A stretch of DNA of 41,851 bases from Balamuthia mandrillaris (taxonomy: Eukaryota). Both the position numbers and the translations under genes were made by a program. Position 1 is the first letter of the stretch. Every line of letters begins with the position of its first letter. Location of the stretch: NCBI GenBank assembly GCA_031835245.2, contig JAVKOQ020000111.1:124001-165851 (forward strand), read 5' to 3'. Of the stretch, positions 14,823-18,922 are shown piece by piece. Under the pieces are notes generated by a model. The model was not told where the DNA came from. It saw only the letters and a list, made by a program, of their open reading frames with translations, and ran no database searches.

Positions 14823-17800
14823 TCAAACAAGAACAATCTTTTGCAGGATTTTCTCTCTCTTGGCAGGATCTTCCTTCCAATCGTCCTTGAAGAGTGCGGT
14901 GAAGACCACGTTGTAGAAGTCAGGGTCGTAGTTGACGGCTCTGTGGCAGTCGGGAGAGAAGTTCATCTCCAACAGGACCGGATTCATGTGTTCGTCCAAC
15001 ATCACATCAGCCCCATAAACGGCTCTGCATCGATGAACCATCTCCCAATCTTTTGTCGCTGTTGTTGTTCGTGTGTTAGAATAGAAATAAAGAAGAAAGA
15101 GAAAATGGATAGAAAAAAATAGATAACAAACCATTCGGAGGAGGAACGATGCCTTGCCAGGACGAAGCTGCGCTCTCAGATTGTGGTTGAACGGCCGCCA
15201 CAAAGACGTCTTTCAGCATCTGATAGATCTTAGGCTGAATGACGTTCTGCCAGTTGTGGTCAGCATCGAGTTTGTGCTCCGTCTCAAAGTCGCGGATGAA
15301 ATCAGTGTAGAGGATCTGTTGGAGGGCGAATGCGGAGTAGTTCATCACCGTAAAGTGCTTTTCGTAGTCGTGAAGATCCGTGAGGGAATATTGCTTGTTG
15401 CCCACTCGAATCCAAAACATACGATAGATATAAACCTTTTTGTGTTTGTCAGAGATTACAAAGGGTTTGTATTTCTTGTGTTAAAGAGAGATCGATAGAG
15501 AGAGAGGTTACCTCCAAAGGCTGCACACTCCGCAACAAAATTATGAAACGAAGGTCAAACTTTCTGCCCTGATAGAGCGCCGGACGGCTAAGATACTTGC
15601 TCACAATCTTTGGTCCTGTCTCCACCGAGCGAACGATCGGCGCCAAGTCCTTTGTCACAAAAATATCGATGCCTCTTCCTTTGTTCCATGGCTTGACGAT
15701 CCAGTGGTTATCTTCTTCTTTTTCCTTGTGTTGCAGGTAGTCTTCCACAAAGAGAGGCAGTTGATTGTTGAGATTGTAAGTGGTTGGCAGCCATGTTGCT
15801 GCGGTGCCCCAACACCGCTCCACTGTGTCAACCAACAAATGCTTTTTTTGTGATACAAAGATAACTTAGGGGGAAATATGCAAAAGAAGAAGAAGAAGAA
15901 GAAGAAGAAGAAGAAGAACACTAATGAAAACAAGAAGGGAAAGTAAAAAACCTTATAGGTGATGCACTTCTCATTCGGGAACTGATTGATCATCTGTCCA
16001 GACTTTCCTTTGGCAAGAATGTCCTCCACTTCTCCCATGTCTCCACCGAACCACACTACATCCGCCTCCTCCGGTCTCTCCACAAATGGTCCAAACTCTT
16101 CGCTCCAAGTCAAAGCTTGACACAAAAAGTCAATATCTGAATAAACAGAGAGTTTCTTCTCTGTTTCTTTCTTAGGCGTATCATTTTCATTTTCTGTGGA
16201 TGTGGAAGATGGAGGAACGATGGACTTCAACCGGTCTTGATGCTGCTTTAGCACCCTCTTCATCAAATCTCGATAACAAACTTCTTCCTCTGATTCTTCC
16301 TCTGTCGTAACAAGTTCGTCTTCACACATCCAACCGAGAGCAATAGCTTTGACTGCTCTAGCAAAGTCAGTCGTCAGTCCCACGAAAAAGTCTCTCTCCA
16401 CGAGACATCCCTCTTCTATGTCTTTCACCGGCCAAAATAAGTTGTAGGCTTGAGCTTGTGCTTGAGGTTGAGCCGTTCCGAAATAGAAGAAAGGAATGCA
16501 GCGTACGTTGGCATCGTCCGGATCGAGCCCACAGTGTGAGATGCGGGTGCCTACTTCGTCCATCATGTACCAAACCGCTGTTCCTTCTGTTGACTATTTT
16601 GGATATAAATAAACAGCAGCGACAGGCGGATGAATGAAAAACAGAAAAAAAGAAAACAAACCTGAGAAGCGGGATCCATAGCCACCCTATAGGTTTGGTT
16701 GTACTTCCACATCTCACTCCAAATATCCTCCACTAACTGTTCTTTCGGTTTAACCTCTCCACCTTCTTTTTCTTCCTCACCGTCTCCTTCGACACTTACT
16801 CCAACCAACGCTGCCATTCTGTGAAGCAACTGCGGCGGCATCTCTTCCAGCTGCTTTCGGGCTGTGTCAAAAGTATAAGTCCAAGCATGGTCTATGAGGA
16901 AGATATCAGAGAATGCTTTGACTCCTTCCTCCGCTGCTACCACTAGCTTCAGCTTTTGGTCGGTTGGATCGAAGCCCAATTGGAATTTTTCTCCTGCATC
17001 AAATCTTTCTTCTGTATGTTCTGTCAGAGAACGAAAAGTAGAATTTTTTTTAAAAAAAAGAAAGTAGAGAAAAGAACCTTTGAGTTTTTGGTAAAGCACA
17101 GGCCACAACGAAGGAGGCACTTTCATCTGCAACAACTGAGATTGATGCCTCTCAAGGAAGAAAGCATTATACTCGACAACATGTTGCGGAATAGATTCCC
17201 CTCTCGCCAAATAATCCAACGGACTCATCGAATCACCCATTTCCTTTTCAACCAGCTCTTTCACTGCCTTCCATTGCTCTTCTTCTTCACTCCGTGTAGC
17301 TTCCGTCTCTTGTTTTTGTTCTTTCGATGTGGAAAACCATCCTCTTGTTTGCGCAATCCGAAGCGCTTCGTTGCCGTCCACACAACCGTAACGACTTTCA
17401 AAAAACTTTCTTCCTGCTTTTTTCTGTGGTTCAGATGCCGTCAAGGTGGAAGAGAGAGTTGAGTCTAATTCTTCAGGGCCAGCAAAGAGGTGAAGGTGAG
17501 AACGGTATTCCTCCGTCTCAGCATCAACAGGTTCATCAGCTACATGAACCATGGAACGATGGTCAAACGCCAGAATTGAAGAATGCTCTGAGAAATAAAG
17601 AGCCTCAAATGGAACGCTGGAGTTTAAATCCGTAATTATCTAATGATATTGATAAAGAAAGAATAAACATAAGAATAAGGGAGCAAACAAACGAAGCGGA
17701 AAAAACCGAAATAAGAACAAGAAAGGCATACCACACGACAGGCATCTATGAAAGGAAGAATGTTGTATTCTTCTTCTGGCACAACGGTGAAGTGTTTACG

Positions 17801-18922
17801 AAGTTCGATTACTCCTTCTCGCTCTGCTTCTGTCAAACTGTGAAGAGGATGAATGACAGCGGTTTCTTTATCCGTGTTAGACAGATCTTCAAGGTAACAA
17901 AAGCCGTGGAACTTGACGAAGAACCGAGCTTTGTCCTTAAGTTTCTCTTGTAGCTTGATGAGTGCTTCGCGAATCTTTGGTTGCACCAAGAAGCTCGTTT
18001 CGCCCACCGATGGACAGATGAGCACCCCTAAAACAGCAAGTGAGCTAACAAGTAAGAAGAAAGAAGAAAGAAGAAAGAAGAAAGAAGAAAGGAGAAAGAA
18101 GAGAAGAAGAGAAGAAGACGCAAAAAAAAAAATCGCAAAGAATGCAAACCAAGCTTTCCAGCATGCTCCTCAGCAAAGTACCTTTGCCTCACGTCCTCCG
18201 TAGAGTAGGGCAACGTGCCCCTAAAGAACCTAGTAAAGAACAACGGGGTGCGGTGCTCCCGGTCTCCACAGCTCTCACAGCCAAACATGCAATGGCCCAC
18301 CGGAAAGACGTCCACAACGGTTTCCTGCTGCTCTCCTCCAAAGAAAGAGCGGATCAGGTTCAGGACTTGGGCTTGAGCGCGGCCAAAGCCATAGTTGGTG
18401 GAGGCGGTGAGCAGGAAGACGACGCGACGGCCCAGACGACGGTCCTCGCGCAGCTGCTCAAAGAGGTGGCGGAGGGTGAAGGGCAGTACGCGCTCCACAA
18501 GGGGCCAGCGCTGCTTGTCGCTGTACTCCTTTTGCATGCGTTGCGTGGCGGTGTTCCATTGATAGAGAAACTGATGAGGCCAACAAAAAAAAGCGTGGTG
18601 AGTGAGTGAGGATCAGGACGAGGAAAGCAGGAGAAGTGAGAAGAAAAAGAACAAGAAGTACCGCTTTGCTTGGGAAACGTTCTAAGAACGGAGCGCGATG
18701 TTCCACCTCGAATGGTCAAACAAAAAAAAAAGTAGCGACGATGAAGTGATGAGAAGGAATGCTTCTTACGGAAAATAAAAAAAACAAAAGTGTTCACTGT
18801 TTTACCTGTGAATAACTGGTATGAACCGGAAAGTAGCAGACTATGTTGGCGTTCTTTAGCGTTGCCTCATCCACCACCACCATCGACGACGACGACGACG
18901 ATTGCGACGACGCGGCTTCCAT
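14823..18922 (-). CDS. TTLL12: Fusion protein: N-terminal TagB/TagF-like (CDP-glycerol glycerophosphotransferase, GT-B) domain plus tubulin-tyrosine ligase-like 12
   Basis: TTLL12 motifs: LYQKLKEERFDAG, DIFLIDHAWTY, WYMMDEVGTRISH, INQFPNE, WIVKPWNKGRGID, KFDLRFIILLRS, DYEKHFTVMNY, RAVYGADVML, LLEMNFSPDC. Upstream exons from ATG 18922 splice in frame (introns 18028-18149, 17640-17731, 17012-17077). They encode VLICPS, VKFHG, IITDLNSSVPFEALYF and YGCVDGNEALRI. Confidence 0.85.

What the first reader, a model, noticed from the sequence alone, without database searches (positions are those of the whole stretch)
14823..18922. TagB/TagF-like glycerophosphotransferase domain fused in frame to TTLL12
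Seen in sequence: the ORFs at 17636-18988 are not a separate gene. They splice by canonical GT-AG introns into the TTLL12 frame. One continuous exon (17078-17639) carries both the end of the upstream domain (IITDLNSSVPFEALYF ... FFESRYGCVDGNEALRI) and the start of TTLL12 (FLERHQSQL..VPPSLWPVLYQKLK), so the fusion does not depend on splice prediction. Established knowledge: bacterial teichoic-acid TagB/TagF enzymes show ordered motifs HG, ILYAPT, (R/K)xH, LITDYSSVxF(D/E) and DGxASxRI, with two catalytic histidines. Here the same order reads VGHC, VLICPS, VKFHG, IITDLNSSVPFE, DGNEALRI. Animal and plant TTLL12 have only SET-like and TTL domains and no agreed catalytic activity. Inference: a bacterial-type nucleotide-activated transferase is coupled to a tubulin-code pseudo-enzyme, hinting at an undescribed cytosolic protein modification (glycerophosphoryl or glycosyl transfer).
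Basis: partly seen in the sequence, partly recalled or inferred. Interest (0 to 1): 0.9.

Follow-up and report, generated by a model that had tools for sequence, protein, structure and literature searches.

The report
Teichoic-type transferase fused to TTLL12
In this amoeba one spliced gene joins an undescribed enzyme domain, predicted to fold like bacterial cell-wall phosphate-linking enzymes, to TTLL12, a widespread protein with no agreed activity; the pair likely builds an amide-linked phosphodiester tag on a protein, possibly the long-orphan ethanolamine-phosphoglycerol tag of elongation factor 1A.

Summary
The fusion is real. Ten GT-AG exons (18922-14823, minus strand) give 1100 aa. One spliced 3357-nt transcript contig joins the upstream exons to TTLL12, and NCBI models one gene.

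The first ~390 aa have no Pfam, NCBIfam or PDB-sequence match but fold confidently as GT-B (pLDDT 93). TagF-like enzymes and UDP-GlcNAc 2-epimerases tie by structure; profile comparison favours TagF-like (95% vs 0.3%). The second His and the nucleotide-binding motifs align; the first His is inconclusive, and a Cys/His loop is new.

The domain defines a family of 172 representatives: fused to TTLL12 in amoebozoans, a choanoflagellate and metamonads, to a phosphoesterase in fungi, to another ATP-grasp in two bacteria, or alone.

Best, untested reading: it forms a phosphodiester from a CDP-alcohol, and the TTL domain, which keeps its ATP-grasp residues, ligates an amine to a protein glutamate. 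eEF1A ethanolamine-phosphoglycerol fits: human TTLL12 binds eEF1A domain III and no enzyme was known in the papers I read. Tubulin remains a rival. No paper or earlier scan note on the fusion was found.

The parts
14823..18922 (-). Whole gene, 10 exons, 1100 aa: GT-B domain + helical linker + SET-like + TTL (TTLL12)
   Evidence: NCBI models P0001/P0009; spliced contig
18806..18922 (-). Exon 1 (ATG; first strand and the P-x-H..SQ-x-E motif start)
18662..18706 (-). Exon 2 (45 nt)
   Evidence: agrees with NCBI P0009
18150..18570 (-). Exon 3: N-lobe with LTAS and the GHCxxGCxSC..H loop (18300-18268)
   Evidence: its 3' end matches the loose end of the X1 contig
17732..18027 (-). Exon 4: C-lobe with CPS (18025-18008) and KFH (17917-17903)
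17078..17639 (-). Exon 5, the fusion exon: ITDLNSSVPFE, DGNE, linker helices and the start of TTLL12
   Evidence: open frame; contig and raw reads cover it; homologs over its whole length
16662..17011 (-). Exon 6: SET-like domain, first half
   Evidence: joint 17011/17078; PF25556 E 1.5e-22
15952..16593 (-). Exon 7: SET-like domain end and TTL N-extension
   Evidence: joint 16593/16662; PF25556
15512..15841 (-). Exon 8: TTL domain (WIVKPWN, KFDLRF)
   Evidence: PF03133 E 1.3e-27
15132..15435 (-). Exon 9: TTL domain
   Evidence: PF03133
14823..15058 (-). Exon 10: TTL metal-binding motifs YGADV and EMNFSPD, stop
   Evidence: PF03133; acceptor as in the NCBI model
17337..18844 (-). GT-B domain, approximate span over exons 1-5 (about aa 27-394)
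   Evidence: AlphaFold2 pLDDT 93.1; fold searches; ends calculated

Best explanation
One spliced gene encodes a GT-B domain fused to TTLL12, and the protein likely works as a two-step cytosolic enzyme: the front domain is predicted to move a phospho-alcohol from a CDP donor onto a hydroxyl, and the TTL domain would use ATP to join the amine of an ethanolamine unit to a glutamate side chain, most likely giving the ethanolamine-phosphoglycerol (EPG) tag of elongation factor eEF1A. Shown: the fusion, the transcript, the conserved residues. Predicted: the fold. Inferred: CDP donor (about 0.65), coupling with an active TTL ligase (about 0.45), eEF1A/EPG as product (about 0.3). The order is open: free glycerophosphoethanolamine first (CDP-ethanolamine + glycerol, or CDP-glycerol + ethanolamine) and then ligation, or the reverse. 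Lineages whose TTLL12 lacks the domain would draw the unit from phosphatidylethanolamine.
For: GT-B model ties with TagF, TarL, Bcs3 and Cps3D (Z 15-17). Profile match to 13 PF04464 members 94.9%, E 4e-8, against 0.3% to 23 epimerases and at most 0.29% in 30 shuffled or reversed controls. TarL's cytidine-side Pro395, leaving-group His433 and ribose Glu497 (PMC10901376 passages) have counterparts P194, H229, E299 (P0001 numbering) at spacings 35/70 against 38/64; these and H141, K227, D291, S294, S295 are kept in 9 of 9 confirmed fusions in the table. TTL K, R, D, E-x-N kept in 6 of 7 full-length fusions. The same domain is fused to a different ATP-grasp protein in bacteria. A TagF-related enzyme, FtaD, puts an amino-acid phosphate from a CDP donor on a protein glycan (bioRxiv 2026.02.12.704994 passages). 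Human TTLL12 co-purifies with EEF1A1 (PMC3520985) and binds its domain III directly (PMC13616918). EPG sits on Glu in domains II/III, domain III suffices, the enzymes were uncharacterised, and it is found in mammals, plants and T. brucei but not S. cerevisiae (PMC2830473, PMC3275919). TTLL12 is listed in animals, plants and trypanosomes.
Against: No activity was measured, and I saw no EPG data for any organism with the fusion. Structure alone cannot separate TagF-like enzymes from epimerases. The first catalytic His is not in register with WHG in profile alignments. T. brucei eEF1A fragment 315-394 is modified although it lacks the C-terminal 55 residues, where the human TTLL12 site (438-462) was mapped. 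In T. brucei the ethanolamine comes from phosphatidylethanolamine, which needs no such domain. Human TTLL12 binds tubulin dimers through its TTL domain and T. brucei TTLL12B RNAi lowers polyglutamylation. The domain also occurs without TTLL12, and E299 is lost in 7 of 7 phosphoesterase fusions tabulated. The nucleotidyltransferase-decarboxylase neighbour is in only 1 of 2 bacterial loci. Absence of TTLL12 from yeast was not tested.
Confidence: 0.32

Rival explanations
1. The GT-B domain is a CDP-alcohol phosphotransferase of small-molecule or glycan metabolism. TTLL12 is a tether or regulator and the two chemistries are not coupled.
For: The domain stands alone (for example P0005, P0017, P0018, P0030) or is fused to an EEP phosphoesterase in 10 of 42 proteins scanned, like synthase-phosphatase pairs (analogy recalled). 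A low-confidence stretch at 393-401 separates it from the linker, and the full-length pTM is 0.54.
Against: The fusion is kept with intact motifs across lineages at 33-47% domain identity, and a second, unrelated ATP-grasp fusion exists in bacteria. The low pTM also reflects a shallow alignment for the TTL part.
Confidence: 0.27
2. One reading: TTLL12 binds tubulin and the GT-B domain adds glycerophosphate, another phospho-alcohol or a sugar to tubulin or a microtubule partner.
For: [quoted passage not shown]
Against: I saw no report of such a tubulin mark in the papers read. Fungal and bacterial copies of the domain have no TTLL12. It leaves the kept ATP-grasp residues and the eEF1A binding unexplained.
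Confidence: 0.17
3. The domain is a GT-B enzyme of another chemistry: a nucleotide-sugar transferase, epimerase or hydrolase, or a metal-dependent enzyme using the Cys/His loop.
For: Best Foldseek hit is a UDP-GlcNAc 2-epimerase (E 4e-9, TM 0.55); epimerases tie at Z 16; the Atlas lists PF04464 and PF02350 both at 0.92, with under 170 shared features; C142, C146, C149, H154 are near-invariant and have no TagF counterpart.
Against: No profile similarity to epimerases (0.3%); the PT, KxH and DxSS motifs are those of the TagF-like set.
Confidence: 0.2
4. Two separate genes or transcripts that annotation has merged.
For: Raw-read depth in exon 4 is low: only X3, none in X4 or X5.
Against: No stop or intron between the domains in exon 5; one spliced contig spans both; the same join is in transcriptome-derived P0002 and in intron-free-looking proteins such as P0013 and P0024.
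Confidence: 0.02

Closest known systems
TagF-like CDP-alcohol phosphotransferases (PF04464: TagF, TagB, TarL, Bcs3, Cps3D)
   Same: GT-B fold (Z 15-17, rmsd about 4 A over about 295 residues); C-lobe PT, KxH, DxSS..E and DG motifs align.
   Different: No Pfam hit; 10-12% identity; shorter N-lobe (5 strands; His-to-Pro 53 vs 92-95) with a Cys/His loop; no N-terminal extension for membrane helices before the fold; mostly eukaryotic; fused to TTLL12.
TTLL12 (PF25556 SET-like + PF03133 TTL)
   Same: Both domains present (E 9e-38 and 1e-59); counterparts of human WICK, SKYI, DIRY, RAMYAVD and EVN present.
   Different: About 440 extra N-terminal residues; the human protein as described has only the two domains.
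C. difficile FtaD (CDP-N-methylthreonine:GlcNAc phosphotransferase)
   Same: TagF-related enzyme acting on a protein-linked acceptor with an amine-bearing CDP donor; its operon has a methyltransferase, as do both bacterial loci here.
   Different: No ATP-grasp partner described; its sequence was not compared here.
UDP-GlcNAc 2-epimerases (PF02350: WecB, NeuC, GNE)
   Same: Tie for best structural match.
   Different: No profile similarity (0.3%); TDSGG not matched as DxSS.
eEF1A ethanolamine-phosphoglycerol modification
   Same: A glutamate-linked amide plus a glycerol phosphodiester is what an ATP-grasp and a TagF-like domain could make (inference); human TTLL12 binds eEF1A domain III.
   Different: No enzyme named in the passages read (2010, 2012, 2021); no data for amoebae; the known precursor in T. 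brucei is phosphatidylethanolamine.

Membership tests
TagF-like (PF04464) | GT-B fold | tested here: met
   (predicted model)
TagF-like (PF04464) | Scores against the Pfam model | tested here: not met
   0 of 2, 0 of 6, 0 of 42
TagF-like (PF04464) | Profile-profile homology to members | tested here: met
   94.9%, E 4.3e-8, C-lobe only; 92.6% without the bridging rows; 80.4% against a 5-row subset; controls at most 0.29%
TagF-like (PF04464) | First invariant His (TagF H444, TarL H300) in a WHG motif | tested here: inconclusive
   H141 is near-invariant (41 of 43) and follows the fifth strand. MAFFT puts it on the HG of bridging protein P0104, whose HG aligns with WHG, but hhalign does not put H141 in register. 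No coordinates to superpose.
TagF-like (PF04464) | Second invariant His (TagF H584, TarL H433) | tested here: met
   H229 in 52 of 53 rows; aligns with RxHP
TagF-like (PF04464) | Pro beside the cytidine amine and acidic ribose ligand (TarL P395, E497) | tested here: met
   P194 in 46 of 47; E299 in 9 of 9 confirmed TTLL12 fusions, lost in 7 of 7 EEP fusions; equivalence by motif and spacing only
TagF-like (PF04464) | Membrane-binding helices and a lipid-linked acceptor | tested here: inconclusive
   The fold starts at residue 21 with one short helix before it; no hydrophobic segment
TagF-like (PF04464) | Transfers an alcohol phosphate from a CDP donor | not testable with these tools
   needs an assay
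UDP-GlcNAc 2-epimerase (PF02350) | Sequence profile and motifs | tested here: not met
   0.27-0.32%, E about 0.2; no Pfam hit
TTLL12 | SET-like domain followed by TTL domain | tested here: met
TTLL12 | Orthology to animal and plant TTLL12 by tree | not tested
   no animal or plant sequence was fetched; rests on PF25556, motifs and NCBI's name
Active ATP-grasp ligase | ATP- and metal-binding K, R, D, E-x-N | tested here: met
   6 of 7 full-length fusions; roles of the residues recalled from TTL enzymes

The most novel reading that the evidence does not exclude
This fusion is the Rosetta stone for TTLL12. TTLL12 is not a pseudo-enzyme but the missing ligase that attaches ethanolamine-phosphoglycerol to eEF1A glutamates in all lineages that have it, humans included. 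The fused TagF-like domain is an ancient, lipid-independent maker of that unit, kept in amoebozoans, a choanoflagellate and metamonads, and reused with a phosphoesterase in early fungi and with another ATP-grasp in myxobacteria.
Probability: 0.27. Interest if true: 0.95.

Novelty: new variant of a known kind. Interest (0 to 1): 0.8.

Why it matters
It is an unannotated, well-conserved enzyme family of teichoic-acid-polymerase type that is mostly eukaryotic, hidden in front of a protein every database calls simply TTLL12. It also ties two open questions into one cheap test. TTLL12 is a cancer- and cilia-linked protein with no agreed activity. The EPG tag on eEF1A was described in 1989, and its enzyme was still unknown in the 2010 and 2012 papers I read. 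Existing TTLL12 knockout cells and mass spectrometry of eEF1A would decide it. If EPG fails, the fusion still points to an unknown cytosolic phosphotransfer in protists, including a human-infecting amoeba.

Tried and rejected
No whole genome is held, so paralogs in this amoeba were not counted. No listed holder run is on record as RNA; X1 is 'RNA?' and is judged by its spliced joints.

No Pfam, NCBIfam or PDB-sequence hit for the domain; the six weak amyloid-precursor hits are to linker helices and were dismissed. No match in annotated phages or viral contigs. P0104 has only 2 close relatives. The domain was in 2 of 401 genomes of the bacterial phylum, both already known. The one metagenome locus, L043, looks like the same sequence as L002.

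Tree of 36 of 64 rows (rows under 55% coverage dropped, three EEP fragments kept): the fusions do not form a starred clade. AU tests reject neither one clade of fusions (p 0.25) nor bacteria outside the eukaryotes (p 0.19), so age, donor and direction are unresolved. My by-eye labels of P0037 (Entosiphon) and P0006 as fusions were not confirmed by the TTL-module profile and are not counted.

Full-length model: pTM 0.54, TTL part weak; it confirms TTL similarity only. Complex prediction of the TTLL12 module with a giant-virus eEF1A as stand-in: no answer, score 0.19.

Paper searches with no description of the fusion: 0 papers; listings only. 'Ethanolamine' occurs 0 times in three TTLL12 papers and 'TTLL12' 0 times in a 2021 eEF1A review. 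Subscription papers and supplements were not seen. Earlier scan notes: nothing on this; the three bacterial TagF notes were not used.
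Full report
1. Gene. Three-frame reading and splicing by coordinates give ten minus-strand exons from 18922 to 14823, all introns GT-AG, 1100 aa. 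With intron 5 left in, the translation is identical to NCBI KAL6062955.1 of Balamuthia mandrillaris, named only 'TTLL12'. Exon 5 holds the end of the upstream domain and the start of TTLL12 in one open frame. One 3357-nt contig of run X1 skips introns 4, 5 and 6 exactly, continues into exon 3, and has the length of a fully spliced mRNA on both sides. Raw reads agree but are few (67 laid in three runs) and thin over exon 4, so a shorter isoform may also exist.

2. The front domain. It has no hit in Pfam, NCBIfam or PDB sequences. AlphaFold2 with 64 sequences gives two Rossmann lobes, pLDDT 93.1, pTM 0.92. Fold searches return GT-B enzymes; the top eight in the wide search are four UDP-GlcNAc 2-epimerases and four TagF-like enzymes within Z 15.1-16.2, and the second look puts Bcs3 (Z 16.8, 4.2 A, 307 aligned) and TagF (16.5, 4.0 A, 295) level with GNE (16.3). 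Profiles break the tie: 94.9% against 13 PF04464 matches, 0.27% against 23 epimerases (from 25 loci), at most 0.29% for 29 shuffles and one reversal. The match covers the C-lobe, the donor-binding half. The Atlas gives PF04464 clusters at 0.92, below unnamed viral clusters at 0.94; this is a lead only.

3. Motifs. TarL uses His300 as base, Pro395 beside the cytidine amine, His433 at the leaving group and Glu497 at the ribose (PMC10901376, passages); TagF uses H444 and H584 (PMC5974469, passages). P194, H229 and E299 match the last three by motif and spacing. H141 is near-invariant but its equivalence to the base is unproven: the N-lobe is shorter, and hhalign places VGHC on a later strand. It is followed by C142, C146, C149 and H154, a likely metal site (inference) absent from TagF-like rows.

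4. Family. A profile of six sequences finds 172 representatives at E 0.001, 150 listed. Of 42 longer proteins scanned, 8 carry SET_TTL or TTL, 10 an EEP domain (2 under the curated cut-off) and 2 a D-Ala ligase-like ATP-grasp. A TTL-module profile hits 11 of 153 strongly, five of which built it. Named fusions: Dracoamoeba and Mastigamoeba balamuthi (full); Salpingoeca helianthica and Paratrimastix (models end in the SET-like part); Blattamonas, where only the first 110 residues match and the His motifs are gone. EEP fusions include Linnemannia and Blastocladiella, most with EEP motifs intact. Didymodactylos has it alone. Group names (amoebozoan, choanoflagellate, metamonad, early fungi, bdelloid) are recalled. 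Single-transcriptome records may be contaminants. Two myxobacterial-type MAGs carry ATP-grasp plus domain beside a methyltransferase, a small unannotated ORF and an MsbA-like exporter; one also has a nucleotidyltransferase fused to a CobD-like decarboxylase, the other a convergent phnW/phnX pair. The tree resolves neither the age of the fusion nor the direction of transfer.

5. Mechanism. The domain meets an ATP-grasp fold twice, and the TTL domain keeps its ATP- and metal-binding residues in 6 of 7 full-length fusions. TTL domains are carboxylate-amine ligases by fold (PMC3520985, passages and section 19). A phosphodiester-forming domain plus an amide-forming domain could make an amide-linked aminoalkyl phosphodiester. 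One such tag is known: EPG on eEF1A glutamates, enzyme uncharacterised in PMC2830473 and PMC3275919 (passages); a 2021 review names none in the passages seen (PMC8268798). Human TTLL12 co-purifies with EEF1A1 and binds domain III (PMC13616918, passages), the domain sufficient for EPG attachment. FtaD shows that TagF relatives can use amine-bearing CDP donors on proteins (bioRxiv 2026.02.12.704994, passages). Against this: the mapped binding site is dispensable for EPG in T. brucei, the precursor there is phosphatidylethanolamine, and TTLL12 has documented tubulin links (PMC10883266 and PMC12714142, passages). PMC10889654 and PMC13317287 were read as passages for background. All of section 5 is inference.

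6. Verdict. Observation confirmed. It works like a TagF-type phosphotransferase (about 0.65) but is not filed in PF04464. Architecture and family were not found in print, nor in earlier scan notes; the TTLL12-EPG pairing itself could not be searched. New variant of a known kind, interest 0.8; 0.95 if the EPG reading holds.

Noticed in passing
window 17012-17077: NCBI's model of this locus (P0009) retains this 66-nt in-frame intron; the contig and raw reads splice it.
   Followed up: yes
P0016, P0019, P0020, P0022, P0027, P0043, P0053, P0055, P0087, P0142: A well-supported clade carries the domain fused to an EEP phosphoesterase with intact motifs (named members are early-branching fungi) and has lost E299; possibly a synthase-phosphatase pair.
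   Followed up: partly
L001 3109-10085; L002 6481-15254: Bacterial cluster: methyltransferase, small unannotated ORF, ATP-grasp plus GT-B domain, MsbA-like exporter; L001 adds a nucleotidyltransferase-decarboxylase fusion, L002 has phnW/phnX and a GlpT-like transporter. Rare: 2 of 401 genomes.
   Followed up: partly
P0138: The Blattamonas TTLL12 (2470 aa) keeps a decayed copy of the domain without the His motifs; P0031 has the reverse, a decayed TTL site and a PDZ insert.
   Followed up: partly
P0104, P0121, P0174, P0175: Bridging proteins with an HG..K motif and no Cys loop, 99% profile match to the family and 90% to TagF-like rows; the best viral fold match is a Hokovirus protein (TM 0.57).
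   Followed up: partly
window 12021-14230 (-) and 19185-20400 (+): Neighbours: a PLP class I/II enzyme (serine palmitoyltransferase-like, name recalled) downstream and a Ras-family GTPase starting 263 bp upstream, head to head. No link shown.
   Followed up: no
window 21947-22357 and 22644-23183 (-): Two similar short ORFs in tandem with no Pfam match.
   Followed up: no
window 26911-28199 (+): Proline racemase family gene.
   Followed up: no
L044-L046: Three viral contigs carry eukaryote-type eEF1A; only L044 keeps Glu at the domain III EPG position (by eye).
   Followed up: no
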